The notes: generated by a model not told the origin, from the letters alone. Numbered from the stretch's first letter, positions 7,104-22,579 are shown. The stretch: DNA of 64,000 nucleotides from an uncultured Candidatus Binatia bacterium (GCA_965242605.1 CBDESS010000004.1:5835-69834), one strand, 5' to 3'. Program-made: numbers and translations.

Positions 7104-9529
7104 CCGGCCTCCTCCGGGCCGGCTGAGGCGGCCCGGGCCTCCACCGGGACCGCCGCCGCCCAGACCCGCTCGGCCCCCCGGCCCTGCCCGGTCCGCAGCC
7201 TGGTGATGGGGTAAGCTGGCAGCCGAATGGACGCCAGACAGGTGCCGGCAAAGCGCGCCGCCTGGTCTACCTGCGGGGCATAACGGGGGTGCCGCCGGAA
7301 CGCGAAATCGAGCACCTCAAAGCCCCGGGACCGGCGGGCCGCCGCGAGCACAGCCGGGTCCCGGGGTCTGACGTGCAGAAAGAAGCCGGGGGCCGTGTCC
7401 GCTGGACGACAGGGGGCCCGCAGGTAGGTCAGCGTGGTCCCGGCGAGGTACAGGGCAAAGCGCGACCGGGCCACGGGGGCACCCGCCACCGCCACCCGGT
7501 AGGCTTCGCGCACCAGGTCGGTCCCGGTGGCACCGGGAGGCGACACAGGGATGGCCACCCGCCACAGATCGGTGCCCCCGAAAGGCAGCACTTGCCTGGC
7601 TTCAATGGCCCGGCTCGGATAGGCCGGCAAGGGCAGCCGAATCAGACACTGGCCGTCCACCAGGACACCGTACCGGCTGAAGTCGAAGTACCTCTCCTCA
7701 AATCCCCACTTCCGACGCCATCGGGGCAGGTCGGCCACATCCACCGGGAAGACCTGCACCGAGAAGGACCCGCGCAGGTCCGCCGGGCCGCAGGCCACCT
7801 TCACCCACATCAGGGTCTGGTCATCCAGATACAGGTCAAAGCCCACCCGACCGACCGGCACCCCGCCCGTCACGACCCGGACCACAGCCCGATAGGCGGC
7901 CGTGGTGGCTACATCCACCCTGGCCAAGTTGGGGGCCGTCACCGTCAGGACGGTGTTATGGTAAATCTGATGGTTATAGAGGTGAGGCGCGAAGAGAGGG
8001 CCGCTAAGGCCGCGCCGCAAGTTTGAGTGGTGATCGATCACCTGAAAGTCCCCAGACGGCACCCCGCCCTCGGCGAGGACGAGGCGGCGGCGCACCGCTT
8101 TGGGAAGAATGAGCCGATTCCGGACCCCCAGACCATGCATCTCCAGCGAGATCGGTGAAGTGGGATAGCGGCGGAGGAGATGTTCCAACCCCTCCCGGTG
8201 CGTGGTTCCCCAGCGGTCCATCTCGTACCAGGTCCCCAGGTAGTCGGGCGTGCACCGGTCCACCAGGGCATTGAAATAGGCTATCTGGTGGGGATGGAGG
8301 GCCACCAGCTCGACGACCACCCCGGCCAGGCCCGCCGCCGCCAGCCCATGCATGCCCTGCCGCAACACGGCCCAGCGACAGACCGCCGCCAGCCAGCGCA
8401 GCCCGAACACTGCCAGCAGACACACCGGGGCGTACAGAAAGTAGACCTGACGCCAGCCGTTGTAAAGGTTGGCATTGACAACGAGGACGGCGACAACCGG
8501 GAGGACCAGACAGGCGACGAGCAGCAGGCCGAAGCGGACGACGGGGGCACCCAGCACGGTGCCGGGGGAGATCAAACCGCGATGCATCACGGACACTGCC
8601 CCTACCAGACTCAGCAGCAGCACCCCCGGCGGGGTGGTGATGGCAATCCAGGTCGGAAGGTAGTCCGCAGGAAGCTCCGGCCAGCGTACCGGCTCGCCCT
8701 GGAAGAGGGTCACAGCGTGAATCGGGTGCTGGGAGAGGACTGCCACGGCCTCACCTAGCGCCAAGGGGTCACCCCACAGGTAGGGCGAGACCGCGTACAG
8801 CGTCAACACACTGACTGCCACGAACACCGCCCCCGTGCTCAGAACGTGCCAGCGTGCCGCCCGCCCTGCCGCCCCCACCAGGTCGCCCGCCCGCAGGACC
8901 ACCACCACAACGAACAGCAGCACGCCCATGATGCGCAGGTTGGTCGCTACCCCCACCCCGACCCCACACAGTGCGAACGCCCCAAGGCTCTCCCGCCGCC
9001 ATGCCCGGTGAATCAGGAACAGGGCAACCAGGAACAGCACCAGGAAGGGGATGTCCTTGGTATTAACGAAGGAGTAAGCGTAGAGCCGGGGATGGAGCAC
9101 GAACAGCAGCAGGGCGACCAGGGCCAGCCAGCGGCTGTGGAAGAGGTGGTACACCAGCCGGGCACAGCAGTACCCACCGGCCAGAAAGAAGAGGTGGGTC
9201 AGCAGATGGCGGCTCAGGTAGATGGCCCGGCTGTCGGTGAGACCCAGCAGCCGCTCAACGAGCACCAGCGGCACCTCGAAGACGACGCCATAGAACCGAT
9301 TGTGGGGAAGACCGGGGGGCAGCAGAACCTCAGCGTCCCCCAGCAGGTAGTTGACCGCCGCATGGCCGTGTCCGTACCGGAGCTCTTCGTCCCGCGAAAC
9401 GCCGTAGTCGTCAAGGACGGCCACGCCCATGACGGCCAAGACCGTCAGGGCCAGGAGTACGCTGCGGGCAAGCGCGACATCGCCTGCTCCCTGGCCCCGC
9501 TTCGGGGGGGACACCGGGATACCAGTCAC
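7100..9529 (-). CDS. GT-C-fold membrane glycosyltransferase paralog, 809 aa
   Basis: 809-aa ORF. Conserved N-terminal TM domain. C-terminal domain more diverged from copies 2/3 and closer to copy 5. Confidence 0.8.
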   Translation of the reverse strand: MTGIPVSPPKRGQGAGDVALARSVLLALTVLAVMGVAVLDDYGVSRDEELRYGHGHAAVNYLLGDAEVLLPPGLPHNRFYGVVFEVPLVLVERLLGLTDSRAIYLSRHLLTHLFFLAGGYCCARLVYHLFHSRWLALVALLLFVLHPRLYAYSFVNTKDIPFLVLFLVALFLIHRAWRRESLGAFALCGVGVGVATNLRIMGVLLFVVVVVLRAGDLVGAAGRAARWHVLSTGAVFVAVSVLTLYAVSPYLWGDPLALGEAVAVLSQHPIHAVTLFQGEPVRWPELPADYLPTWIAITTPPGVLLLSLVGAVSVMHRGLISPGTVLGAPVVRFGLLLVACLVLPVVAVLVVNANLYNGWRQVYFLYAPVCLLAVFGLRWLAAVCRWAVLRQGMHGLAAAGLAGVVVELVALHPHQIAYFNALVDRCTPDYLGTWYEMDRWGTTHREGLEHLLRRYPTSPISLEMHGLGVRNRLILPKAVRRRLVLAEGGVPSGDFQVIDHHSNLRRGLSGPLFAPHLYNHQIYHNTVLTVTAPNLARVDVATTAAYRAVVRVVTGGVPVGRVGFDLYLDDQTLMWVKVACGPADLRGSFSVQVFPVDVADLPRWRRKWGFEERYFDFSRYGVLVDGQCLIRLPLPAYPSRAIEARQVLPFGGTDLWRVAIPVSPPGATGTDLVREAYRVAVAGAPVARSRFALYLAGTTLTYLRAPCRPADTAPGFFLHVRPRDPAVLAAARRSRGFEVLDFAFRRHPRYAPQVDQAARFAGTCLASIRLPAYPITRLRTGQGRGAERVWAAAVPVEARAASAGPEEAG

Positions 9530-12245: not shown

Positions 12246-12925
12246 TCAAACAAGTGGCTGGCTTCGACCGTGGGGATAGGCTCTGGCACCGTCTGGTGTA
12301 TCAGTTCCTTGTCGAAGAACCCGTCAAGCGAACCGGCCAATCCAATGGAGCGAGCAAATGCGGTCAGGGGGGCAACAATGGTCCGATGGAACGCCTCCGG
12401 CCTCCAGTGCAGCACGGGGAACCGCAACTTTTCGTGCAAGAGAACAAGTTCGGTATTATACGCACACCACAGCCGCAGACCATCGTCCCTCTCGACCGTA
12501 AGCGAGCCGTGTCTAGCGGCGAGCGACCGGATGACCAGAGACGGGTGCCGAAATATCGCTATGGGGCGCGCACCGGGTACCAACCGCAGCCATCCCTCCA
12601 CGGTCCACATGGTGCGGGGATCCTTGAATCCCCAGGGACGTGCGGCTTCAAGATAGGGAAAAATCAGTGCCTTGCCTTGTCTTTCGCTCTTGTGATCCCA
12701 CTTGACTTGGCCACTTGGCGGGTCCCTCCAGGAGGCACCCGCCTTGGTCAACAGCGCATCGTTCAACTCCCGTATGGCTTCATTTTCCTTATTGCCCTTT
12801 TTGTTGAAAGGGGCTTGGTGATTAACATCGCCCAGATACAACCCTCCAGCCTCTAGGCTGCCGAGCAGAAGTGATGTTCCACTCCGGTGCATCCCCAAAA
12901 CGATCACACATGGAGACTGTGACAT
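12203..12925 (-). CDS. Sulfotransferase family protein (PAPS-dependent)
   Basis: 240 aa. N-terminal VIVLGMHRSGTSLL matches the 5'-phosphosulfate-binding loop of sulfotransferases. Plus-strand ORFs here are antisense shadows. Confidence 0.7.
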   Translation of the reverse strand: MSQSPCVIVLGMHRSGTSLLLGSLEAGGLYLGDVNHQAPFNKKGNKENEAIRELNDALLTKAGASWRDPPSGQVKWDHKSERQGKALIFPYLEAARPWGFKDPRTMWTVEGWLRLVPGARPIAIFRHPSLVIRSLAARHGSLTVERDDGLRLWCAYNTELVLLHEKLRFPVLHWRPEAFHRTIVAPLTAFARSIGLAGSLDGFFDKELIHQTVPEPIPTVEASHLFECLIEISQTYTSRH

Positions 12926-12966: not shown

Positions 12967-13857
12967 CTATTCTTCGCGCAAGAGAAACCGCCGGGCGGCA
13001 GGGTGCATATGTCCGACGAAAACGGGGTCTACGGATTCGTGAGCTTCATACGGCTTGCCGTATATTGTCTCATATTCCTCCTGGTAGAGCTCCCACGGGT
13101 GCTGACCCATGGGGACATTCGTTGCAAAACCGCCGTGGAATTGATGGAATGTTCCTTCGCCCAACAGACAGACAGGTGTCAAAGCGTCGTCCAGAACCGC
13201 ACGCTGGAAGAAATCATGAGTGGCCAAGCCGCCTGCCGGTCTCTGGAATGCTTCATTGAAACCACCCATGTAAAAAAAACGGTTACGGCCGATCGTGAGA
13301 CAACTGCTCTCCGCTATCGTCCCGAAATAGCCACCGCGGGATGAGAGGGCCAGGCAGGAGATCTTGAACAGCCGATAGCCGTCGCTTCGCCAATCAATAT
13401 CGTGAAGAAGCCTGTCCTCGGTATTCTGGTCATATCCCTTGAGCATGGAATCGTTCTGTATCTCGTCGCCCAGGTGGAATCCTGGGGTATAGATGAAAGG
13501 ATTTGTGAATCGTTCGGTACAGAAACGCATCCATCCAAGTATGCCGGGGCTGCAAATACGGGCCCCATCAATCAGGAGCATGACATAGGGGGATTTTGCC
13601 CGGCGCACGCCGTAATTCACGGCAGACACCGGGGATACCGACGAGGTCGGATAGGAGATGTACTGAAACTGCCGTCCGAAACGCTTGACCTCGGCTTTGG
13701 ACAGGGGGACCGAAGAACCGTTGTCTATGGCGATCACTTCGTAAGGAAAGCTCACCTGCTGATATTCGGCGGACAGGGAAAAGAGCGTCCTTGGCGCTTC
13801 GCGTCTCATATTGTAGAAGATCACCACGACGGAGAGCTTGGGTCTTTTGAAAATCAT
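12967..13857 (-). CDS. GT2 family glycosyltransferase. The ORF extends to 13956 but the likely start is the internal Met at 13857.
   Basis: MIFKRPKLSVVVIFYNMRREAPRTLFSL…YEVIAIDNGSS are GT2 N-terminal/DxD-type motifs. 4-nt gap to the sulfotransferase start region. Confidence 0.8.
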   Translation of the reverse strand: MIFKRPKLSVVVIFYNMRREAPRTLFSLSAEYQQVSFPYEVIAIDNGSSVPLSKAEVKRFGRQFQYISYPTSSVSPVSAVNYGVRRAKSPYVMLLIDGARICSPGILGWMRFCTERFTNPFIYTPGFHLGDEIQNDSMLKGYDQNTEDRLLHDIDWRSDGYRLFKISCLALSSRGGYFGTIAESSCLTIGRNRFFYMGGFNEAFQRPAGGLATHDFFQRAVLDDALTPVCLLGEGTFHQFHGGFATNVPMGQHPWELYQEEYETIYGKPYEAHESVDPVFVGHMHPAARRFLLREE

Positions 13858-13924: not shown

Positions 13925-15775
13925 TCAATCCAACTCAAACGCCTCTGCGTGTTCATGCCGGAGCGCCGGGTTCTGATCCTCTTTGCGCAAAAAACAGTTA
14001 CCGATGGCTAGACAATCAAGGTCGGTACCCATGAAACAGCGAAAGGCGTCCGCGGGGGTGCACACGATAGGCTCGCCGCGCACATTGAAGCTGGTGTTCA
14101 CGATGACCGGGCAGCCCGTTCTGGCCTTGAACGCTTCAAGCAGCGCGGAGTAGCGGGGGTTGGTCTCAGGATGGACGGTCTGCACGCGGGCGGAATAATC
14201 GACATGGGTTACCGCGGGAATGTCCGAGCGCGGGATGTGCAACAGATCAACGCCGAACAGGGCCCGCTGCGCCTCGGTCGTCGCCTTGCGTCGCTCTGGC
14301 TTCACGGCCGCGACCAGCAGCATATAGGGGCTGTCGCGGTCAAGCTCGAACCAGTCAGCCACATCGGCCCGCAGCACGCTCGGCGCAAAGGGGCGGAAGG
14401 ACTCGCGGTGTTTGACCTTGAGGTTGAGCGTCTTTTGCATGGCGGGCGAACGTGCGTCGGCCAGGATGGAACGGTTGCCCAGGGCACGCGGCCCAAACTC
14501 CATCCGCCCCTGAAACCAGCCCAGCGCTTTGCCGGCGGCCAGCGACTCGGCCGTAACGTTGATCAGCGCGTCGGTCGTCAAGGTCTCGTGGCACGCGCCG
14601 GCCGCGTCAAGCGCCGCGCAGATCTCCTTCGGGCTGAACTCGGGGCCGAGAAAAGCCCCGCGCATGGCATCGTCAGGTGCTCCGCCGCTGGTCTCGCCGC
14701 AATGGCGCGGCTCACCAAACAGACGATGGCTTGCCAACAGCGCCGCGCCCAATGCCCCTCCGGCGTCGCCCGCCGCCGGCTGCACCCAGATGTCCGCAAA
14801 CTTCCCGTCTCGCACCACCTTGCCGTTAGCCACGCAGTTGAGCGCCACGCCGCCGGCCAGACACAGATACGGGATGCCGGTCTCCGCCCGCAGCGAGCGG
14901 GTCAGCCGCAGCACCGCTTCCTCAACCACCGCCTGGGCCGAGGCCGCCAAGTCCATGTGCCGCTGCGTCACCGGCTCCTGCGGCGTCCGTGCTGGACCGC
15001 CGAACAGCGCGTCGAAGCGGCCGTTGGTCATCGTCAGCCCGGTGCAGTAGTCAAAGTAGTCAAGGTTGAGGCGGAAGGTACCGTCGGCCTTCAGGTCGAT
15101 CAGGTGGTCAAGAATAGTGCGGGCGTAGGTCGGCTCGCCATAGGGGGCCAGGCCCATCAGCTTGTATTCGCCGGAGTTGACCTTGAAGCCGGTGTACAGG
15201 GTGAAGGCCGAGTAGAGCAGCCCCAGGGAGTGCGGGAAGTGGAGCTCTCGGATGATCTCCAACTCGTTGCCGTGGCCGATGCCGACCGAGGTGGTGGCCC
15301 ATTCGCCCACCCCGTCCAGGGTCAGGACTACCGCGTCGCGGAACGGAGACGGATAGAACGCGCTCGCCGCATGCGCCTGGTGGTGCTCGGCGAACAGCAG
15401 CTTGGTGTTCCAGTCCACATCCGGGGCGAGTCCTTGCAGTTTCCGGCGCAGCAGGTTTTTCTGAAACAGCTTCTCTTTGATCCACAGCGGGGCGGCCATG
15501 CTGAAGGAGCGGAAGCCGCGCGGCGCAAAGGCCACACAGGTTTCGAGCAGCCGCTCGAACTTGAGGAAGGGTTTGTCGTAGAACGCCACCCGGTCAATGG
15601 CCGCGGGGGGAAGGCCAGCCTGAGCGAGACAGGAGGCAATGGCCTTGGCCGGATAGCCGGAATCGTGCTTCTTGCGGGTGAAGCGCTCCTCCTGGGCCGC
15701 GGCGACGATCCGCCCACCGTCCACCACAGCTGCGGCGCTGTCGTGATAGAAGGCTGAGATACCAAGAACGCGCAT
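13925..15775 (-). CDS. Carbamoyltransferase, NodU/CmcH/TobZ (HypF-like) family, 616 aa
   Basis: Full-length match to the carbamoyltransferase family: MRVLGISAFYHDSAAA…, YSARVQTVHPETNPRY, NTSFNVRGEPIV. Confidence 0.85.
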   Translation of the reverse strand: MRVLGISAFYHDSAAAVVDGGRIVAAAQEERFTRKKHDSGYPAKAIASCLAQAGLPPAAIDRVAFYDKPFLKFERLLETCVAFAPRGFRSFSMAAPLWIKEKLFQKNLLRRKLQGLAPDVDWNTKLLFAEHHQAHAASAFYPSPFRDAVVLTLDGVGEWATTSVGIGHGNELEIIRELHFPHSLGLLYSAFTLYTGFKVNSGEYKLMGLAPYGEPTYARTILDHLIDLKADGTFRLNLDYFDYCTGLTMTNGRFDALFGGPARTPQEPVTQRHMDLAASAQAVVEEAVLRLTRSLRAETGIPYLCLAGGVALNCVANGKVVRDGKFADIWVQPAAGDAGGALGAALLASHRLFGEPRHCGETSGGAPDDAMRGAFLGPEFSPKEICAALDAAGACHETLTTDALINVTAESLAAGKALGWFQGRMEFGPRALGNRSILADARSPAMQKTLNLKVKHRESFRPFAPSVLRADVADWFELDRDSPYMLLVAAVKPERRKATTEAQRALFGVDLLHIPRSDIPAVTHVDYSARVQTVHPETNPRYSALLEAFKARTGCPVIVNTSFNVRGEPIVCTPADAFRCFMGTDLDCLAIGNCFLRKEDQNPALRHEHAEAFELD

Positions 15776-15778
15776 GGT

Positions 15779-15928
15779 TCAAAAGAGCGTGTATATCATC
15801 GGCGCGACCGCGCTGGTCTGGGCCAGCACAATCAGCCAGCCCAGCACCAGCATGGTGACGATGGCCGGCAGCAGCCAGTATTTCTTGCGCACGCGCAAAA
15901 AGGTCCAGAGTTCGCACAGAAACGACAT
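15779..15928 (-). CDS. SxtK-like small membrane peptide (49 aa). Not in the supplied ORF track because it is below the length cut-off.
   Basis: Manual translation of the minus strand gives MSFLCELWTFLRVRKKYWLLPAIVTMLVLGWLIVLAQTSAVAPMIYTLF*. This matches the conserved small-peptide family found next to carbamoyltransferases (SxtK-like). ATG at 15928..15926, TGA at 15781..15779, 3 nt before the carbamoyltransferase start. Confidence 0.6.
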   Translation of the reverse strand: MSFLCELWTFLRVRKKYWLLPAIVTMLVLGWLIVLAQTSAVAPMIYTLF

Positions 15929-15936
15929 GACACACC

Positions 15937-16371
15937 TCAGAACTGGTTTTGCATGGACTCGGGTTCTGGCCCTGGCGGCTCGCGGTGGAGCCAGTAACTG
16001 GGCACGGTCGGGTCGGCGCGCAGACGCAGCGGGTCCTTGCCCAGGGCACGCATGATGAGGCCGGTCGGCGTCACCACCGCGAAGTAGATCATGGCCAGGA
16101 TGACCGGGCTGACGAGGCGGTGGAGGAGCAGGCCGAGCCTGAACCAGACCGTGTTGAACGGGGCCAGCGCCTCGGCCTTGACCAGCGTCACCGCCAGCAC
16201 CACACCGGCAACGGCCAGCGCCCAGCCGCGGGGCGGCCTGCCGCCGAGCAGCGGCAACAGACCGATCACGACAAACAGGGCGACAAGGACGGCACCAAAA
16301 CCGCGCTCTGAGCTCCTTGCAACCGCTTCTTCGTCTGTCAGTCGCTCGTGGGACTGCATCCGTTTCGGCAT
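15937..16371 (-). CDS. SxtJ-like small membrane protein (144 aa)
   Basis: 144-aa ORF with two hydrophobic segments. Size and position (directly upstream of the SxtK-like peptide and the carbamoyltransferase) match the sxtJ-sxtK-carbamoyltransferase triad. Confidence 0.55.
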   Translation of the reverse strand: MPKRMQSHERLTDEEAVARSSERGFGAVLVALFVVIGLLPLLGGRPPRGWALAVAGVVLAVTLVKAEALAPFNTVWFRLGLLLHRLVSPVILAMIYFAVVTPTGLIMRALGKDPLRLRADPTVPSYWLHREPPGPEPESMQNQF

Positions 16372-16620
16372 ATCAAAGGTCCTTCTCTTCTGGAGTCCAG
16401 CGGGTTGACATCCAGCGGTCGAACGCGCTACTCCCTGCCAGAGGCAGTAAGTCTATCAAGAACGCAGGTCTTAGCAAACCGGTCGTATGGTCATCCATGC
16501 GAACCGTCGTTTTTTTCATCTATTGACGATGGCGAACACAAGGCGAACACAAGGAAGAAGGCAGCTAAGCAGGTCATCTACCGCTACGGCGATAAGCGCA
16601 AGAACAACCCGCATGTCGGT

Positions 16621-17250
16621 ATGGTCGATACGGTCAGCGACGGGGTAGAAGGCCAGACAGCATGGGCCTGTGACCCGCACATTGACCCGACACTCAACTT
16701 TGACTCTGCCCGGGCCGGCATTGAGCGGCTGATTGATGACGCCCCGGTCATGCGTGAGGCCCTGGAGCGGATCAAACGCCTGCACGCGCCCTATCTCAAC
16801 TGGACTGGCAAGGCTGAGCGCACCAGCTTTGCGGTGGATACCGTGTCGCTGCATGTCCACGAGTGGATTGACCCGGCGACGATTCTGGCCACGATGCAGA
16901 AGCGCGATCGGAGGGCAAAGGGCAGCGGGGCTGGCGAGTTCCAACCCGACCTGTTTGCCGCCCCGTTTGAGAACCTGCCGCTACGCGAGGCGATTGACTT
17001 CTACCAGCATGAGCGCGACTGGGCCAACCGGCTGATTGCCAGCGATTCGCTGCTGGTGATGAACTCGCTCTTGCACAAAGAAAGCATGGCCGGCCAAGTG
17101 CGGATGATCTACATTGATCCGCCCTACGGCATCAGATACGGCTCGAACTTCCAGCCCTTCACCAACAAGCGGGATGTCGCGGATTCTGATCGGGACGAAG
17201 ATTTCACAAATGAACCTGAGACGACCGCGGCATCGAAAGCCTCAAAGTGA
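16621..17250 (+). pseudogene. Type III R-M Mod (beta-class N6-adenine MTase) N-terminal fragment. Contains motif IV DPPY but lacks the TRD and motif I.
   Basis: …LNWTGKAERT… and LIASDSLLVMNSLL…VRMIYIDPPYGIRYGSNFQPF align with the EcoP15I Mod N-terminus (SLNWLGKSYARLL…VKMIYIDPPYNTGKDGFVYND). The ORF stops ~20 aa after DPPY. The listed ORF start 16348 overlaps the SxtJ-like gene, so the start is probably ATG 16621. Confidence 0.6.
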
Positions 17251-17348
17251 TGGACCTCCCCGACTGAACCAGCCGCCTCTTTCCTCGTCTTTCCTCTCCA
17301 CCCGGGAGAGGGTCAAGGTGAGGGCAACACGCCAGTGGAGACACCGCC

Positions 17349-18752
17349 ATGAAATTCGTATTCAAACACCTCGGCCCTATCCACAACGCCGAACTGGAGC
17401 TCGGCGACCTGACCATCCTCGCCGGCCGCAACAACACCGGCAAGACCTATATGGCCTATACGCTGTACGGGTTTCTTAAATTATGGAGACACGGATCTGA
17501 GTTCTGGCGAATTATTCATAGCTTGACCGAAGAATCTCTCTTACCGGACTTCAGAGAGAAAAAAACGCGGCTCAAAACATTCATAGAGGAGGGACAGGTG
17601 AAATGGCGCGTAGACCGGGAGACGCTTCATTCGCAGCAGAAATCAATTATGCAAAAAGTGTCGCAGTCCTTCTCAAAAGAAGAACTGGCGAACATGTTTA
17701 GCGCTTCGGATGAGGATTTCGAGAGCGCGTCCATCGGGGTCGTGGTCAAAGACCAGTTTTCCGACCATACGTCCAAAACTCTTGAATTGTCTCATGGGGA
17801 CGAGCTCACAATCACATATAGCGGCGGTGAAATATGTATCTCCAGAAACGAACCGCTCAAGAAGCTTCCATCTAGTTCCGCTATCGGGTTCTCGCTCACA
17901 TATCTTTATCTCTCATTTCTTTTTCCAGAAATTCTTAGCCTCAGCCCCCTTATCCTCTCCGCGGAACGTTTCAGCATATCCCTTTTTTACAAGGAGCTGG
18001 ACTTCACAAAGAATCGCTTAGTAGAGATGCTTCAAGAGAACAGAAAAAAAGACTTCCCCCTTTCGCGCGTGATGATCGACAGGGTAGCGAGTCGGTACGC
18101 TCTGCCCATCAGGGACAACATTGACTACACCAGGAATATTCCTGAGCTTCAAAAGCGACGAAGTAAACTCTATGACTCGAAATTGTTTGAGGACATCAAG
18201 GATATGCTCGGAGGATACTACAGGAGCTCAGACGATGATATCCGGTTCATCTCAAAGGCTCGGAAAAAAAGACGTTTTGATATCCCCCTCCATATCGCTT
18301 CGTCTTCGGCCCGTGGCTTGTCCGACCTGTATTTCTTCCTGCGACATGTCGCCGAAAAGAATCAACTCCTCATCATTGACGAGCCGGAAAGTCATCTGGA
18401 CACGGCCAATCAGATTCAGTTCGCGCGTCTGCTGGCACGAGCCGTCCACGCCGGGCTGAAAGTCCTGATTACCACCCACAGCGACTACATCGTCAAGGAA
18501 ATCAACAACCTGCTCATGCTGAGCAGGGATTTCAAAGACAAACCCGAGGTACTCAAAAAATACGGCTACTCAGAGCACGACTTCCTGAATCCCGCTTCGG
18601 TCCGGGCCTATGTGGCGGAAAACAACAGCCTGACACGGTGTACGGTTGACCCCTTCGGCATTGACATGCCGGTCTTTGACATAACCATTGATGCGATCAA
18701 CCGTGTTACCAGGGAACTTGAGATCCGGCTGACGCACGAAGAAGAAGAGTGA
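17349..18752 (+). CDS. ABC-type/AAA_21-like (OLD/PtuA/AriA/RloA-like) ATPase, 467 aa
   Basis: Walker A GRNNTGKTY, Walker B/D-loop LLIIDEPESHLD, H-loop TTHSDY. GC drops to ~45% from ~17460. RBS GGAGA upstream of the ATG. Confidence 0.85.
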   Translation: MKFVFKHLGPIHNAELELGDLTILAGRNNTGKTYMAYTLYGFLKLWRHGSEFWRIIHSLTEESLLPDFREKKTRLKTFIEEGQVKWRVDRETLHSQQKSIMQKVSQSFSKEELANMFSASDEDFESASIGVVVKDQFSDHTSKTLELSHGDELTITYSGGEICISRNEPLKKLPSSSAIGFSLTYLYLSFLFPEILSLSPLILSAERFSISLFYKELDFTKNRLVEMLQENRKKDFPLSRVMIDRVASRYALPIRDNIDYTRNIPELQKRRSKLYDSKLFEDIKDMLGGYYRSSDDDIRFISKARKKRRFDIPLHIASSSARGLSDLYFFLRHVAEKNQLLIIDEPESHLDTANQIQFARLLARAVHAGLKVLITTHSDYIVKEINNLLMLSRDFKDKPEVLKKYGYSEHDFLNPASVRAYVAENNSLTRCTVDPFGIDMPVFDITIDAINRVTRELEIRLTHEEEE

Positions 18753-18753
18753 A

Positions 18754-19230
18754 GTGGAGTTGATCTCTCAATTGAAGGCCATCCTGAAGCCAGAATTAAT
18801 TCAAGAAGCAGAGTCAGATGATCCCTTCATCCTTGAGGAGTCTCCTAAAAACCAAGAAGGCACAAGGGTTGAGCTTCACGGTGTTTCAGCGCCTTTCCTG
18901 GCTGTGTGCGTGAAGAAGCTCAATCACCTGTCAGCTTTGCAGCAAGGCGCGTGGCGACAAATCTGTGACTATCTACTGATTGGGCAATCAGATGGCAACG
19001 ATTATGCTGTTTTTGTCGAGTTGAAGAAGACGCTGCGAGAAGACGAAAAGCCCCGGGAGCAGCTCAGACGCTCGCTGCCGCTTTTGGAATACCTGCTTTC
19101 TGTATGCGCGGTTGAGTACAGCAGCGGAAAATCCAACCTGACAATACGCTATGTCCATATTGCCGAACGATTGAACACCAGGTTTGCCAAGCAGGGAGGG
19201 AAAATTGAAATGACGCTATTGAAGCCGGGC
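18754..19230 (+). CDS. Small PD-(D/E)xK- or Toprim-like putative nuclease partner of the ATPase (RloB/AriB-like role). The 3' end is uncertain: the ORF reads on to 19491 into high-GC sequence.
   Basis: GTG start 1 nt after the ATPase TGA. Motifs ILEESPKNQEG … GQSDGNDYAVFVELKK (D…ExK / DxxD). Low GC continues to ~19215. No in-frame stop at the GC transition, so the gene may be 3'-disrupted. Confidence 0.5.
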
Positions 19231-20640
19231 TGGTCAAAACGCTTCGCGTGGTCGTGCGGGACGACGCCCTGGCCAACGCCCAGAGCTACACAAGCAAGCT
19301 CTACCACCTCTACAATGAAGCCGAGGTCAAAGAGGTCCTCAACCGCAGGGCCGAGCCGCACGAACCCCTGCCGGACCTGGTTCAGAAAGCCTATGCCCTG
19401 CTGGCCTACGACTGGCGGGAGACCGCCCGGCAATGGACCATTGAAAGCGCGGCCCGGGTGGAGCGCTTTTTTACAGCCGGAGACTGCTTGATCCCCGAAA
19501 CCCGCCAGCCCGACCGTACCCTGCAGGTAGACTCCCGGGTGCTGGAGAAAGCCGAACGGGGCGAATCTGCCGCAGCCAACAAGGACTACGCCCAACGCCG
19601 GCGCGCCGTTCTCATGGCCGCCGGTCCGGAGACGACAAGCGCGAAGCGCTGCTCAGGGCCAGCTAGGAAGAGCAACTGCGCAGCCTGGTCGATACAGTCG
19701 GCAAACGCGGTCAGGCCGGCCAGCGCCTCCAGAATGTGATCTCGGTCGCCATGCTGTCAGAGGGCTGGGACGCGGCCAATGTGACCCACATCATGGGCCG
19801 GCGGGCCTTTACCAGCCAGTTGTTATGCGAGCAGGTCATTGGCCGAGGGCTGCGCCGGGTGTCCTGTGAGGTGGACAAGGAAGGCCGCTTCCTGCCCGAA
19901 TATGTCAATATCTTTGGCATACCGCTGTCCATCTTCCAGGAGCTCGGCCAAGGTGGGGACGCCCCGCCACCACCCAAGCCCAGCGTACAGGGCGAGGTCG
20001 TGCCGGGCCGCAATCAGTTCAAGATCCGCTGGCCAAATGTGGCCCGAGTCGAAACAGCGCCGCGGCCAAGCCTGCTCCAAGCCTGCTTATGGACTGGGAG
20101 ACGGTAGAGCCGCTGACCCTGGACCCCATGCAGACGCCTATCTCGGCTGAACTCGTCCCGGCGCTGGCCGGCCAGACCGACCTGTCTGAAGTCAGCGCCA
20201 TTGAGTTGGAACGCGAGGTCGGGGAGCTTCAACTGAAAATCTGCTCTTCCGGGCCGCCGGCAAGCTGTATGTGCAGAGCGCCGACGCCTGCTCGGGCAAC
20301 TGCCAATACTTGGCAGTACAGATGTTGTCTTTGCCTCGGCACATATCCGGGATGTGGTCATGGGGCATGCGTCATTGCGGATCAGACAGAGAGATGCTCC
20401 ATGAACACGGCTCAACAAAAGATGCCGCTGAGCTTGCAGAACTTCCCGGCCTCAGTCCCGCCGACGGGGCTGAAGTCCAACTCCGTAGCGACCCGAACGA
20501 CGTAATCATTGAGGCCGGACACAAATCACCCATCAGCAGATCGCAAAACTGGCCCGCACCTCCCGACCACGGGTCACGGCGATTCTCAGCCGCAACACAA
20601 AGGACGCATCCACCGACCTGATGATCCGCGCATCATGGCC
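19209..20640 (+). pseudogene. Type III R-M Res (SF2 helicase-nuclease) C-terminal remnant, multiply frameshifted
   Basis: Helicase motif V …AMLSEGWDAANVT and motif VI QVIGRGLRRV. Coding continuity requires switching between the ORF frames 19248..19739, 19736..20107 and 20089..20505. No N-terminal helicase motifs I-III are present. Confidence 0.55.
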
Positions 20641-20648
20641 ACTTGAGG

Positions 20649-21545
20649 CTATCGGGCCACGCTGACGTTCTCAGCCGCAGCCTCTTCCTGAATGTCAAGC
20701 GTTGTCACCCGGCGCAGTTCGCGGGGGTATGTGGTGTCCTCAAAGGGCCGGGCGCGGTGCATGGTGGCCCGGTTGTCGTAGACGACCAGGTCGCCGACCC
20801 GCCACCTGTGCCGATAGACAAAGGCCGGCTGGGTGGCGTGCTCAATCAGCTCCAGCAGCAGCAGCCGGCCTTCGGGCAGCGGCCAGTCCATGATCTGCGA
20901 GGCGTGGGCGGCAATGTAGAGCGACTTGCGCCCTGAGCCTGGCAGGGTCCGAACCAGGGGGTGGACCGCGCCCCTCAGCATCTCCTGCTCTTGTGGCGAG
21001 AACGCAAAGCCCAGGACTTGGCGCGAGTGGGCGATTGAATGGTGGGCCCGCAGGCCCTCCAGCCGGGCTTTCAGCTCGGGTGAGAGGGCGTCGTAGGCCG
21101 CCCGCATATCGGCATATTCGGTATCGGCCCCGACCGGCGGGATGACCCGGGCGAACAGCATGGAATAGCGCCCGGGCGGGTCCTGGAAGGAGGCGTCGGT
21201 GTGCCACAGCCGGTTGCCCAGACCGTACATGCGCCGGCGGTCGTCGGCCGGCTGAATCTGACCGTCGTCGGTCAGGTTTGAGACATCGGCCAGAGCCTCG
21301 TTGCCGAAGCGGTTCTTTTTGAGGGCGCTGATGCCGGTCTTAGTGTGCAGCTCGCCGTCCAGCCGACGGGCAAAGGCCAGGTGCTCCTCATCGCTGAAGC
21401 GCTGGCCCCGGAAGACCAGCAGCGCGTATGCGTCCATGCCGGCCCGGAGTTCGGCCAGAGTTTGCCGGTCGTGAACCCGGCGGAGATCAAGCCCGGCCAC
21501 CTCAGCGGCAAAATGGGGGTGCAGTTTCCGAAATGTTACAGCCAT
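20649..21545 (-). CDS. TauD/TfdA family Fe(II)/2-oxoglutarate-dependent dioxygenase
   Basis: 298 aa. WHTDASF…HR motifs typical of TauD/TfdA. Confidence 0.85.
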   Translation of the reverse strand: MAVTFRKLHPHFAAEVAGLDLRRVHDRQTLAELRAGMDAYALLVFRGQRFSDEEHLAFARRLDGELHTKTGISALKKNRFGNEALADVSNLTDDGQIQPADDRRRMYGLGNRLWHTDASFQDPPGRYSMLFARVIPPVGADTEYADMRAAYDALSPELKARLEGLRAHHSIAHSRQVLGFAFSPQEQEMLRGAVHPLVRTLPGSGRKSLYIAAHASQIMDWPLPEGRLLLLELIEHATQPAFVYRHRWRVGDLVVYDNRATMHRARPFEDTTYPRELRRVTTLDIQEEAAAENVSVAR

Positions 21546-21703
21546 GCCGGCCCCTCCTTGTCATGCGGCCCGCTCAGGATGACAGAAACCTACGGTTTTC
21601 CAGGCCCGGGGTCAACGAAGACGGCTGCCGATTCTGACGGGCATAGCCCCGCCCGGCCTGAACCGCTATGCTCTGCTGTCAAAAGACTATACAGGAGGTC
21701 GGT

Positions 21704-22579
21704 ATGGATATCGGAAAAGTTGGCATCTGGTTTTTTCTGGACAGCATGAGCGCACCGGACAGCGCGGCCTTTGCCCAATCGGTCGAAAAAGCCGGCTATA
21801 AGACGCTGTGGATTCCTGAGGCGGTCGGGCGTGAGCCGTTTGCCCACACCGCCTATCTGCTGAGCAACACGGAAACCCTCAACCTGGCCACTGGGATTGC
21901 CAATATCTGGGCGCGGGACGCCTATACGATGGCCACGGCCACCAACACCGTCGCCGAGCTGTCGGGCGGCCGCTTTGTGCTGGGCATTGGCGTCAGCCAT
22001 AAACCGCTGGTCTCCAACCTGCGCGGCCACAGCTACGACAAGCCCTACAGCTATATGAAGGACTACCTGCCCAAACTCAAGGATGTCTTCTATCAGGCCC
22101 CCAAGCCGCCTGAGCCGGCCCCGATCCTCATCGCCGCCCTGCACCCCAAGATGCTGGCCCTGTCCGCGGAGCAGGCCCAGGGCACGCATACCTATTTTGT
22201 GCCGCCCGAGCATACGGCCAAGGTCCGGGCCCAGATTGGTCCCGAGCCGTGGATCTGCGCCGCCCAGGCCGTTATTCTGGAAACAGACGCGACCAAGGCA
22301 CGGGCTGCCGCCCGGCACTACATGAAGACCTATGTCCCCCGGCTGCCCAATTACACCAGGAACCTGAAAAATCTGGGCTGGCCGGACGAAGCCTTTGAAG
22401 ACGGCTGTAGCGACGCCCTCGTCGATGCCATTGTCGCCTGGGGGAGCGAGGAAAAAGTCCAGGATCGCATTGACGCCCATCTCAAAGCCGGCGCGACCCA
22501 TGTGTGCCTGCTGCCGATTCGAGCTAACGACGAAGCCCTGCCCGACCCGCGCGTTGTTGAAGCCTTCGCCCAGCGCTAA
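21704..22579 (+). CDS. LLM-class (luciferase-like) F420/flavin-dependent oxidoreductase
   Basis: MDIGKVGIWF… LLM fold. AGGAGG RBS 7 nt upstream of ATG 21704. The ORF track start 21668 is an upstream in-frame extension. Confidence 0.8.
   Translation: MDIGKVGIWFFLDSMSAPDSAAFAQSVEKAGYKTLWIPEAVGREPFAHTAYLLSNTETLNLATGIANIWARDAYTMATATNTVAELSGGRFVLGIGVSHKPLVSNLRGHSYDKPYSYMKDYLPKLKDVFYQAPKPPEPAPILIAALHPKMLALSAEQAQGTHTYFVPPEHTAKVRAQIGPEPWICAAQAVILETDATKARAAARHYMKTYVPRLPNYTRNLKNLGWPDEAFEDGCSDALVDAIVAWGSEEKVQDRIDAHLKAGATHVCLLPIRANDEALPDPRVVEAFAQR

What the first reader, a model, noticed from the sequence alone, without database searches (positions are those of the whole stretch)
16621..20640. Degraded Type III restriction-modification locus: Mod N-terminal fragment and frameshifted Res C-terminal fragments flank the inserted cassette
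16621-17250 encodes a Mod N-terminus that aligns with EcoP15I through motif IV (…VRMIYIDPPYG…) and then stops. 19209-20640 encodes Res helicase motifs V/VI (AMLSEGWDAANV, QVIGRGLRR) spread over three frames. The Mod TRD/motif I and Res motifs I-III are absent. This is the signature of a defence-island turnover event: cassette replacement inside an R-M operon.
Basis: partly seen in the sequence, partly recalled or inferred. Interest (0 to 1): 0.55.

Follow-up and report, generated by a model that had tools for sequence, protein, structure and literature searches.

The report
Decaying restriction operon with embedded defence pair
This is the wreck of a four-gene anti-virus operon, a Type III restriction-modification pair with a second two-gene defence system built in between its genes, now being eroded by many separate deletions and frameshifts; the inner pair did not knock out the outer genes, so it is an ordinary case of gene decay.

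Summary
Window 16531-17232 is the first ~240 codons of a Type III Mod, through DPPY motif IV. Window 19209-20371 is Res-derived DNA with helicase motifs V/VI, spread over three frames. Between them lie a full-length PD-T4-4_A ATPase gene and a truncated PD-T4-4_B nuclease gene.

The interpretation, cassette replacement inside the operon, is not supported. Related Candidatus Binatia genomes carry intact mod - PD-T4-4A - PD-T4-4B - res operons, with the pair sitting exactly between the mod stop and the res start.

The window still keeps Mod's last 15 codons and stop (17220-17267) and Res's last 16 codons (20324-20371). Two ~98-99% identical metagenome contigs keep the B stop, the spacer and the Res start. 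So the missing parts went in independent internal deletions after embedding:
- about 2.1-2.3 kb in mod;
- 481 bp across the B/res junction, specific to this strain;
- 48 bp in Res motif IV;
- about 0.55 kb in the Res nuclease domain;
- two 11-bp tandem duplications, a nonsense codon and further frameshifts.

The R-M is dead, B is truncated, and only A is intact.

Side result: in this Res family (NCBIfam BPTD_3080) the mod|res junction carries varied defence cargo in 18 of 73 loci. Interest is low to moderate.

The parts
16529..16552 (+). Native mod start codon (ATG, 16529-16531), followed by an 11-bp tandem duplication (GGCGAACACAA x2, 16531-16552). The duplication puts the start out of frame with the rest of mod.
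   Evidence: Alignment with five relatives and sequence check. The duplication is shared with L097, an independent contig 99% identical to the window.
16555..17227 (+). Mod N-terminal remnant, about codons 9-240, running through motif IV (IYIDPPYG) to ...NEPE. A 3-bp in-frame deletion lies near 16580.
   Evidence: tblastn: 78% identity to L004 Mod residues 1-240. PADLOC MTase_III E 4e-26. Alignment.
17220..17267 (+). Mod's last 15 codons (DDRGIESLKVMDLPD) plus the TGA stop, in a different frame from the N-terminal remnant. The junction of an out-of-frame internal deletion of about 2.1-2.3 kb (L004 codons 241-1018) lies at about 17227/17228.
   Evidence: tblastn: L004 Mod residues 1019-1033, 14 of 15 identical. 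DNA match to the mod 3' ends of L002-L005.
17285..17348 (+). Conserved mod-to-A spacer. It holds a short hairpin-like element (CCTCTCC-N5-GGAGAGG followed by GTCAAGGTGAGGG) and then GGAGACACCGCC before the A start.
   Evidence: Similar hairpin elements lie after the mod stop in L002-L005 (closest in L003/L004), including the cassette-free L002; the GGAGACACCGCC stretch before the A start recurs in L003 and L004. Only one copy exists in the 64-kb window. The predicted fold is not better than shuffled sequence.
17349..18752 (+). PD-T4-4_A-type ABC/OLD-family ATPase, 467 aa, full length. It has Walker A (GRNNTGKT), Walker B (LLIIDEPESHLD) and an H-loop (ITTHSD).
   Evidence: PADLOC PD-T4-4_A E 1.4e-105 over profile 1-454 of 460, and PDC-M47A E 1e-89. 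Pfam AAA_15 and AAA_21. 63% identity to L005 A over its full length.
18754..19208 (+). PD-T4-4_B-type PD-(D/E)xK nuclease gene, first 151 codons only (D72, E89 and K91 retained). The ORF then runs on to 19491 through out-of-frame Res DNA, adding a 94-aa junk tail.
   Evidence: PADLOC PDC-M47B E 7e-5 and PD-T4-4_B E 0.007. tblastn to L005 B residues 2-165. P0001, a full-length homologue at 97% identity, is 177 aa. Structure model.
19208..19210 (.). Junction of a strain-specific 481-bp deletion. It removed B's last 32 codons and stop, the B-res spacer, the res start and the Res 5' remnant including motif III (SAT).
   Evidence: L001 (ENA) and L098 (Logan) are ~98-99% identical to the window on both sides and carry the extra DNA.
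19209..19625 (+). Res remnant, codons 352-506 (frame 0). A 48-bp in-frame deletion at 19439/19440 removed helicase motif IV (EAGHDIPPVLLTVCNR).
   Evidence: tblastn 76% identity. L001 carries the extra 48 bp.
19631..20077 (+). Res remnant, codons 509-657 (frame 2), with motifs V (AMLSEGWDAANV) and VI (QVIGRGLRR). There is a TAG nonsense codon at 19664-19666 and a frameshift at about 19626-19630.
   Evidence: tblastn 81% identity. PADLOC REase_III E 1e-6. The TAG is shared with L001.
20068..20089 (+). 11-bp tandem duplication (CCAAGCCTGCT x2) that causes a Res frameshift.
   Evidence: Direct reading of the sequence. Removing one copy restores ...RPSLLMDWETVEPL..., matching intact Res. Shared with L001.
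20077..20333 (+). Res remnant, codons 654-707 (frame 1, 20077-20238) and codons 707-739 (frame 0, 20235-20333).
   Evidence: tblastn 76% and 70% identity.
20324..20371 (+). Res's last 16 codons (VVFASAHIRDVVMGHA). Codons 740-921, including the PD-(D/E)xK nuclease motif (PDYLIR...LEIKG in relatives), are deleted.
   Evidence: tblastn to L004 Res residues 922-937, 12 of 16 identical, E 1.4e-4.

Best explanation
The locus is the in-situ wreck of a four-gene composite defence operon: mod - PD-T4-4A - PD-T4-4B - res.

The intact form (shown in relatives):
- The outer genes are a Type III restriction-modification pair. Mod is a large N6_N4-type methyltransferase of about 950-1030 aa. Res is a BPTD_3080-family SF2-helicase/PD-(D/E)xK endonuclease of about 930 aa.
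- The inner pair is a PD-T4-4-type nuclease-NTPase system: an ABC/OLD-type ATPase sensor and a small PD-(D/E)xK nuclease effector. It sits exactly between the mod stop and the res start, on the same strand.
- The pair's lower GC indicates that it was acquired horizontally and became embedded. That step is inferred.

In this genome's lineage, selection on the operon lapsed (inferred) and it accumulated independent lesions (shown):
- in mod, an 11-bp duplication after the start codon and an internal out-of-frame deletion of about 2.1-2.3 kb that removed the TRD and the AdoMet motifs;
- in res, loss of motifs I-II (seen in sister contig L001), a 48-bp deletion of motif IV, a nonsense codon, three frameshifts (one from an 11-bp duplication) and a deletion of about 0.55 kb that removed the nuclease domain;
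- most recently, and only in this strain, a 481-bp deletion. It removed the last 32 codons of the nuclease gene B, the spacer and the res 5' end, and fused B to out-of-frame Res DNA.

Consequence (inferred): there is no methylation and no restriction. The PD-T4-4 effector is probably crippled, because it has lost three C-terminal beta-strands and a helix of its fold. Only the ATPase gene A is still intact, most likely because it has not yet been hit.
For: 1. Intact four-gene operons occur in related Candidatus Binatia-type contigs.
- L003, L005 and L100 have all four genes; L100 is 958/473/180/928 aa, with Pfam N6_N4_Mtase, AAA_15/21 and ResIII.
- L004, L099 and L101 show the same order with gene breaks: A is broken in L004, L099 is a 3x-coverage assembly with frameshifts, and L101's Res is split.

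2. The window retains the mod 5' and 3' ends and the res 3' end. Sister contigs L001 and L098, 98-99% identical to the window, retain the B 3' end, the spacer and the res 5' end.

3. Divergence from the relatives is similar for all parts (Mod 77-79%, cassette 72-74%, Res 69-76% nucleotide identity). This fits co-inheritance as one unit.

4. All close B homologues (55% identity or more) are embedded in this operon type. Distant ones (49% or less) stand alone.

5. The lesions are real rather than assembly errors. The 11-bp duplications, the TAG and the frameshifts are shared with independent assemblies L001 and L097.

6. Constraint looks relaxed. Between window and L001, substitution density is 1.5% in the Res remnant against 0.33% in the adjacent TauD gene, whose protein is identical.

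7. Identities of the parts:
- A: PADLOC PD-T4-4_A E 1e-105.
- Res: NF046055, 1181 bits for an intact relative and E 5e-104 for the frame-corrected remnant.
- B: invariant D...ExK in 75 homologues and a confident model, pLDDT 81 and pTM 0.82.
- Published work describes PD-T4-4 as an anti-T4 system made of a P-loop ATPase plus a PD-(D/E)xK nuclease (PMC9519451; bioRxiv 10.1101/2025.07.10.664194; PMC12137116).
Against: - No close relative (more than 95% identity) covering the mod deletion was found, so that deletion cannot be dated relative to the others.
- L002 shares the right-hand flank (TauD, LLM oxidoreductase) with the window but has mod-res with no cassette. Gain or loss of the pair at this chromosomal site is therefore unresolved.
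- The B match to the PADLOC PD-T4-4_B model is weak (E 0.007 in the window, 9e-5 in L005). The fold search in the PDB gave no significant hit (best E 0.01).
- Between window and L098, substitutions in A and B total 5 nonsynonymous to 5 synonymous. This is too few to show whether A is still under selection.
- Loss of function of the truncated B and of the whole locus is inferred, not measured.
Confidence: 0.87

Rival explanations
1. A defence cassette inserted into a two-gene mod-res operon and, in the same event, replaced the 3' two-thirds of mod and the 5' half of res (cassette replacement, or defence-island turnover).
For: The cassette has a distinctly lower GC than the flanks. At first sight the missing Mod and Res parts face the cassette.
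Against: Mod's last 15 codons, its stop and the conserved spacer are still present upstream of A. L001 and L098 keep the B stop, the spacer and Res codons 7-58. Intact relatives have the cassette between complete mod and res genes. The deletions have separate internal junctions, and one of them also removes part of B.
Confidence: 0.04
2. The frameshifts and deletions are assembly or sequencing artefacts, and the real genome carries an intact operon.
For: Related long-read MAGs (L002, L004, L099, L101) show gene breaks or frameshifts that may be errors.
Against: Independent assemblies from other samples share the lesions. L097 has the 11-bp mod duplication. L001 has the TAG, the 11-bp res duplication, the frameshifts, and its own loss of Res codons 59-283. 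Deletions of kilobase size with retained gene ends are not typical consensus errors.
Confidence: 0.03
3. The remnant is still a working stand-alone defence unit. Intact ATPase A acts with the truncated nuclease B, or alone, after the R-M host was lost. In other words, the embedded system outlived its host.
For: A is full length with all ATPase motifs. B keeps the D72/E89/K91 catalytic residues. Distant PD-T4-4-like pairs function or occur without R-M (PMC9519451). In L001 and L098, B is complete while Res is already broken.
Against: In this strain B has lost 32 C-terminal residues, which form three strands and a helix modelled at pLDDT about 90 and include a nearly invariant Tyr. It has gained a 94-aa out-of-frame tail. 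No promoter-like site lies upstream of A, and the mod reading frame that would lead into it is broken.
Confidence: 0.12

Closest known systems
Type III restriction-modification systems (EcoP15I-like); specifically the NCBIfam NF046055 'BPTD_3080 family restriction endonuclease' with its large N6_N4 Mod partner
   Same: Gene order is mod then res on one strand. Mod has DPPY motif IV ahead of the AdoMet motif I (Pfam N6_N4_Mtase in relatives). Res has SF2 helicase motifs (Pfam ResIII) and a C-terminal PD-ExK motif in relatives. The PADLOC MTase_III and REase_III models match.
   Different: The window copy is a pseudogene pair, lacking the TRD, motif I, Res motifs I-IV and the nuclease. The family is remote from EcoP15I itself: Mod scores E 0.49 over 41 aa, and Res has no PDB sequence hit. 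Mod is about 300-400 aa longer than EcoP15I Mod, with extra N- and C-terminal regions. In a quarter of the loci, other genes sit between mod and res.
PD-T4-4 (Vassallo et al. 2022, PMC9519451) / PADLOC candidate PDC-M47 / WonAB-like OLD-ABC ATPase + REase-fold nuclease pairs (PMC12137116)
   Same: A two-gene A-B order with adjacent or overlapping genes. A matches the PD-T4-4_A model end to end (E 1e-105). B is a 180-200-aa protein with an invariant D...ExK motif.
   Different: E. coli PD-T4-4 lies in an ICE-like element, not inside an R-M operon. Here B matches the B models only weakly and is C-terminally truncated. Activity has not been tested.
Defence systems embedded within other defence systems ('guilt-by-embedding', Payne et al. 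2024 bioRxiv 10.1101/2024.01.29.577857; PrrC in EcoprrI; BrxU in BREX)
   Same: The cargo sits between the genes of a DNA-modification-based host system, in the same orientation. At the same slot in other genomes the cargo types are the very HEC/PDC families defined by that approach (HEC-01, PDC-M56, PDC-S23, PDC-M24B).
   Different: That study analysed Hma, BREX, DISARM and Type I R-M hosts. Here the host is a Type III mod-res pair. In this window both host and cargo are decaying.

Membership tests
Type III R-M, Mod subunit | Complete beta-class N6/N4 methyltransferase domain: motif IV (DPPY), then the target-recognition domain, then AdoMet motif I (FxGxG) | tested here: not met
   The window ORF has no Pfam hit. 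Only profile positions 65-230 of 983 of PADLOC MTase_III are covered. Codons 241-1018 are deleted. The intact relative L005 meets the feature (PF01555 E 6e-30).
Type III R-M, Mod subunit | Homology of the retained part to Type III Mod proteins | tested here: met
   PADLOC MTase_III E 4e-26. 78-83% identity to the Mod N-termini of 80 genome loci. EcoP15I Mod itself is only marginal, E 0.49.
Type III R-M, Res subunit (NF046055 BPTD_3080 family) | SF2 helicase motifs I-VI plus a C-terminal PD-(D/E)xK nuclease in one open reading frame | tested here: not met
   Only codons 352-739 and the last 16 codons remain, spread over three frames, with a TAG codon and a 48-bp loss of motif IV. The remnant scores 349 bits against a cut-off of 800. 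The intact relative scores 1181 bits.
Type III R-M, Res subunit (NF046055 BPTD_3080 family) | Homology of the fragments over their length | tested here: met
   Four collinear tblastn segments at 70-81% identity. NF046055 E 4.6e-104 over profile 378-773.
Type III R-M | Methylation of a specific site and ATP-dependent cleavage of unmodified DNA | not testable with these tools
   Needs methylome sequencing and restriction assays. From the lesions, both activities are predicted to be absent.
PD-T4-4 | Component A: ABC/OLD-type ATPase matching the PD-T4-4_A model over its full length | tested here: met
   E 1.4e-105, residues 1-457 against profile 1-454 of 460. Walker A, Walker B and H-loop are readable in the sequence.
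PD-T4-4 | Component B: complete small PD-(D/E)xK nuclease encoded directly downstream of A | tested here: not met
   The window keeps 151 codons with D72/E89/K91. It lacks the last 32 residues and the stop, which are present in L001, L098 and P0001. The model matches are weak: PDC-M47B E 7e-5 and PD-T4-4_B E 0.007.
PD-T4-4 | B adopts a restriction-endonuclease (PD-(D/E)xK) fold | tested here: inconclusive
PD-T4-4 | Protection against phage | not testable with these tools
   Shown only for the E. coli system in the literature (PMC9519451).
Embedded defence systems | Cargo located between the genes of a host defence system, on the same strand, with host genes otherwise contiguous in relatives | tested here: met
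   Of 73 loci, 53 have mod and res 10-42 bp apart and 18 have 0.8-3.1 kb of cargo at that junction. The cassette lies between complete mod and res genes in L003, L005 and L100.

The most novel reading that the evidence does not exclude
In the BPTD_3080-family Type III R-M, the mod|res junction may be a dedicated, recurrent slot for accessory defence modules. At least six cargo kinds are seen there:
- PD-T4-4-like pairs;
- PDC-M56;
- HEC-01 (ATPase plus DUF4276);
- RhuM/Fic (PDC-S23);
- an SLFN-AlbA_2/HATPase protein;
- a DUF1828 pair.

In the Binatia-type lineage, a PD-T4-4 clade may have become functionally coupled to the R-M, as PrrC is to EcoprrI, rather than merely co-located. That would extend 'guilt-by-embedding' to Type III hosts and make the uncharacterised cargoes candidate defence genes.
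Probability: 0.2. Interest if true: 0.5.

Novelty: new member of a known kind. Interest (0 to 1): 0.3.

Why it matters
For this window it matters little. It is a pseudogenised defence locus, and annotation should mark mod, res and PD-T4-4B as pseudogenes rather than calling the long ORFs 16348-17250 and 18754-19491 as genes.

The case shows that fragments flanking a cassette need not mean insertion with replacement. Retained gene ends and intact relatives distinguish embedding followed by decay from replacement.

More broadly, the survey suggests that Type III mod-res pairs of this family host embedded defence cargo in about a quarter of loci. The published embedding screen that I read did not use this host class. 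It could therefore yield further candidate systems.

Tried and rejected
- Boundary repeats: no direct or inverted repeats, target-site duplications or tRNA-like landmarks mark cassette boundaries. This argues against a transposon-like insertion.
- EcoP15I comparison: only a marginal 41-residue match for Mod, and no PDB sequence hit for Res. I dropped EcoP15I as the reference and used profile models and intact relatives.
- Exact-protein look-up of A: no record, so there is no population-level data on A.
- Left-flank look-up: L097 stops at window 16719, short of the mod deletion.
- Promoter and terminator scan: nothing above the shuffled expectation.
- Post-mod hairpin: its folding energy is no better than shuffled sequence (z = 0.02), and it occurs once in the window. 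I did not pursue it as a REP element or an attenuator.
- Metagenome scan with A: it found only 31-64% identical relatives, mostly stand-alone pairs.
- dN/dS of the remnants against intact relatives: dS is saturated (1.2-2.1). Ratios of 0.07-0.2 show only that most divergence predates the decay.
- Possible HTH remnant at 20519-20662: only a sub-threshold HTH_Crp_2 hit (E 0.003) and no NCBIfam hit.


Full report
**What is in the sequence**

On the plus strand, the ORF and family scans give four parts.
1. ORF 16348-17250. Its C-terminal two-thirds match the PADLOC Type III methyltransferase model PDLC03632 (E 4e-26), covering only profile positions 65-230 of 983. The match ends just after VRMIYIDPPYG.
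2. ORF 17349-18752, 467 aa. It matches PD-T4-4_A end to end (E 1.4e-105) and Pfam AAA_15 and AAA_21.
3. ORF 18754-19491. Its first ~140 residues match PDC-M47B and PD-T4-4_B weakly (E 7e-5 and 0.007).
4. A fragment at 19736-20107 that matches REase_III (E 1e-6).

GC falls to 46-52% between about 17400 and 19200, against 60-65% on either side.

**Intact relatives change the reading**

A genome-collection scan with the Mod fragment returned 80 loci. The closest, at 79-83% amino-acid identity, are Candidatus Binatia MAGs.
- L003 and L005 have a four-gene plus-strand operon. It consists of mod (948-956 aa), a PD-T4-4A-like ATPase, a 200-aa PD-T4-4B-like protein and res (929-942 aa). The pair lies exactly between the mod stop and the res start.
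- L004 has the same order, but its A gene is broken.
- Look-ups of close B homologues added three more operons. L100 is a 4.4-Mb contig with all four genes intact (958/473/180/928 aa; Pfam N6_N4_Mtase, AAA_15/21, ResIII). L099 has Mod and Res about 91-98% identical to L004's, with frameshifts in a 3x-coverage assembly. L101 has a split Res.
- The intact Res is a member of NCBIfam NF046055, 'BPTD_3080 family restriction endonuclease' (1181 bits, cut-off 800).
- L002, a Binatia chromosome, shares the window's right flank: TauD at 78% and the LLM oxidoreductase at 80% nucleotide identity. It has mod followed directly by res, with no cassette.

**Map of the window against the intact proteins**

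| Gene | Codons retained (L004/L005 numbering) | Window coordinates | Note |
|---|---|---|---|
| Mod | 1-240 | 16531-17232 | 78% identity |
| Mod | last 15 (DDRGIESLKVMDLPD) + TGA | 17220-17267 | different frame |
| A | full length | 17349-18752 | 63% identity to L005 A |
| B | 2-165 of 201 | 18736-19194 | C-terminus missing |
| Res | 352-506 | 19209-19625 | frame 0 |
| Res | 509-657 | 19631-20077 | frame 2; motifs V and VI |
| Res | 654-707 | 20077-20238 | frame 1 |
| Res | 707-739 | 20235-20333 | frame 0 |
| Res | last 16 (VVFASAHIRDVVMGHA) | 20324-20371 | |

- Mod therefore suffered an internal, out-of-frame deletion of about 2.1-2.3 kb. It was not truncated by an insertion.
- The PD-ExK nuclease region of Res (codons 740-921) was lost in another internal deletion.
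- The frame-corrected 387-aa Res remnant hits NF046055 at E 4.6e-104, profile 378-773 of 970.

**Population evidence**

An exact-sequence look-up of the neighbouring TauD protein found L001, a 3.5-kb contig from another metagenome assembly.
- L001 is 98.9% identical to window 18987-21991.
- It has 481 extra bases between window positions 19208 and 19210, and 48 extra bases between 19439 and 19440.
- The 481 bp encode the true C-terminus and stop of B, a ~50-bp spacer, the Res start (MVPTSLIINTPYDMPQQHW...) and a Res 5' remnant. In that remnant codons 59-283, which hold motifs I and II, are already deleted, while motif III (SAT) is present.
- The 48 bp encode helicase motif IV.

L098 is a Logan contig from a third sample. 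It is 98.4% identical to the window and 98.8% identical to L001. It also carries the undeleted B end, the spacer and Res codons 7-53.

The 481-bp and 48-bp deletions are therefore derived and specific to the window's strain. The first of them damages the cassette itself.

Other lesions are shared between assemblies, so they are real rather than assembly errors:
- an 11-bp tandem duplication (GGCGAACACAA) right after the native mod ATG, also in L097;
- a TAG codon at 19664-19666, also in L001;
- an 11-bp tandem duplication (CCAAGCCTGCT) at 20068-20089, also in L001;
- the frameshift near 20235, also in L001.

Between window and L001, substitution density is 1.5% in the Res remnant and 0.33% in TauD, where all changes are synonymous. 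This fits neutral drift of the remnant.

**Why replacement is rejected**

A single insertion-with-deletion event would have removed the inner ends of mod and res. Those ends are retained:
- the mod 3' end, its stop and the spacer upstream of A, of which the mod 3' end aligns in all four loci and the rest of the spacer is recognisably conserved in L003 and L004, are in the window;
- the res 5' end is in the sister contigs.

Each missing segment has its own junction inside one gene. Divergence from the relatives is similar for Mod (77-79%), the cassette (72-74%) and Res (69-76%) at the nucleotide level, which fits inheritance as one unit. The cassette has lower GC than mod and res in every one of the four loci compared (47-49% against 54-63%). 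Its foreign origin therefore predates the split of these lineages.

**What the cassette is**

- PD-T4-4 was found by functional selection against T4 in E. coli, within an ICE-like element (PMC9519451).
- It is classed among nuclease-NTPase systems, with a P-loop ATPase and a PD-(D/E)xK nuclease (bioRxiv 10.1101/2025.07.10.664194).
- It is described as similar to WonAB and to pairs of an OLD-ABC ATPase with a novel restriction-enzyme fold (PMC12137116).

A search with the window's B fragment found 154 homologues. In an alignment of 75 of them, D66, E83 and K85 (P0001 numbering) are invariant; these correspond to D72, E89 and K91 in the window. The AlphaFold model of P0001, which is 97% identical to the window's B, is confident (pLDDT 81, pTM 0.82). 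The residues lost in the window form three strands and a terminal helix modelled at pLDDT about 90. Foldseek against the PDB gave no significant hit, with a best E of 0.01. The top of the list is nevertheless mostly PD-(D/E)xK restriction enzymes: Bse634I, Upx, McrC and FokI. I treat the fold assignment as suggestive only.

Close B homologues (55% identity or more) all lie in mod-A-B-res operons. More distant pairs (49% or less) stand alone.

**Side result: a recurrent embedding site**

Both the Mod C-terminus and the Res N-terminus were found in 73 of the genome loci.
- 53 have mod and res 10-42 bp apart.
- 18 have 0.8-3.1 kb of cargo exactly at that junction.
- 2 are ambiguous.

The cargo is as follows.

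| Cargo | Loci |
|---|---|
| PD-T4-4-like pairs | 3 |
| 630-650-aa SLFN-AlbA_2/HATPase_c_4 protein (one internally truncated) | 10 |
| RhuM/Fic (PDC-S23) | 1 |
| PDC-M56 A/B | 1 |
| HEC-01 ATPase + DUF4276 | 2 |
| 153-aa + DUF1828 (PDC-M24B) pair | 2 (one locus also holds HEC-01) |

Several of these families are the ones defined by 'guilt-by-embedding' in Hma, BREX, DISARM and Type I R-M (bioRxiv 10.1101/2024.01.29.577857). That preprint does not treat Type III hosts. No paper in the searchable library mentions BPTD_3080.

**Verdict**

This is a degraded R-M locus with a foreign cassette. It is embedding followed by piecemeal decay of the whole four-gene unit, not cassette replacement, and it does not lie in a defence island.
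- Functionally the R-M is dead, the nuclease effector is truncated and only the ATPase gene is intact. These functional statements are inferences from the sequence.
- The source organism is probably a Binatia-class bacterium. This is inferred from the nearest relatives and from flank synteny with OZ241351.1.
- Novelty is low: a new, pseudogenised member of known kinds. The Type III embedding slot is a modest lead.

Noticed in passing
L006, L008-L010, L013-L018, L022, L049, L064, L067, L069 (between the mod stop and the res start in each): The mod|res junction of this Type III family carries varied cargo in 18 of 73 loci: an SLFN-AlbA_2/HATPase_c_4 protein, RhuM/Fic (PDC-S23), PDC-M56 A/B, HEC-01 (ATPase + DUF4276) and a 153-aa + DUF1828 (PDC-M24B) pair. 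The embedding preprint that I read does not cover Type III hosts.
   Followed up: partly
window 16531-16552 and 20068-20089: Two of the frameshifts, one in mod and one in res, are 11-bp perfect tandem duplications (GGCGAACACAA x2 and CCAAGCCTGCT x2). Both are shared with independent sister contigs. The same size and type of lesion occurring twice in one decaying operon is curious.
   Followed up: partly
window 17285-17324; L002 ~12870-12905; L003 ~8170-8205; L004 ~13060-13100; L005 ~12840-12875: Short hairpin-like elements of the type CCTCTCC-N-GGAGAGG (followed by an (A/T)AGGGTGAGGG-like tail in the window, L003 and L004) follow the mod stop in all Binatia-type loci, including the cassette-free one. 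It occurs only once in the 64-kb window. Its folding energy is not better than shuffled sequence, and its role is unknown.
   Followed up: partly
L087:1353-1460 (metagenome contig Ga0255432_1233, GC 37%): In a very different, low-GC organism, a PD-T4-4-like A-B pair (48-50% identical) is preceded by a 36-codon remnant of this Mod family's C-terminus with an internal stop. Upstream of that are fragments that, by eye, resemble a BrxL/Lon-like protein. This looks like another decayed embedding.
   Followed up: partly
window 20519-20662 (+), overlapping the 3' end of the TauD gene (20649-21545, minus strand): A frame reads ITHQQIAKLARTSRPRVTAILSRNTKDASTDLMIRASWPLEAIGPR, which resembles the helix-turn-helix region of an Xre/HigA-type regulator. 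The only support is a sub-threshold HTH_Crp_2 hit (E 0.003). It may be a remnant of another gene downstream of res.
   Followed up: partly
L002:9689-12862: The cassette-free syntenic relative (OZ241351.1) has its mod split into at least three ORFs. This could be real pseudogenisation or long-read indel error.
   Followed up: no
L003:8232-9350 compared with L005:12881-14299: The A ATPase of L003 is 381 aa against 472 aa in L005. It lacks about 100 residues in the middle insert region, while both ends are conserved. The WonAB paper notes that insert regions vary in this ATPase family.
   Followed up: no
L010:12971-13768: Here the SLFN-AlbA_2/HATPase cargo is only 265 aa against about 640 aa elsewhere. 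It is an internal deletion that joins the N- and C-terminal parts, so embedded cargo decays in other genomes too.
   Followed up: no
L011, L072, L075 (10 kb of flank downstream of the Mod N-terminus match): These loci have the Mod N-terminal region but no detectable Mod C-terminus or Res N-terminus downstream. Either the arrangement differs there or these are further degraded copies.
   Followed up: no
L101:11593-14667: Downstream of the four-gene operon in this relative lie a CAP12-PCTIR TIR-domain protein, an HTH protein, a BamHI-like endonuclease and a second N6_N4 methyltransferase. That copy sits in a true defence island, unlike the window's copy.
   Followed up: no
window 13925-16371 (minus strand): The left flank holds a NodU/CmcH-type carbamoyltransferase (616 aa), a 49-aa DUF5989 protein and an SxtJ-family membrane protein. 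This small conserved cluster is unrelated to defence. The long antisense ORF 14171-15757 is a high-GC artefact.
   Followed up: no
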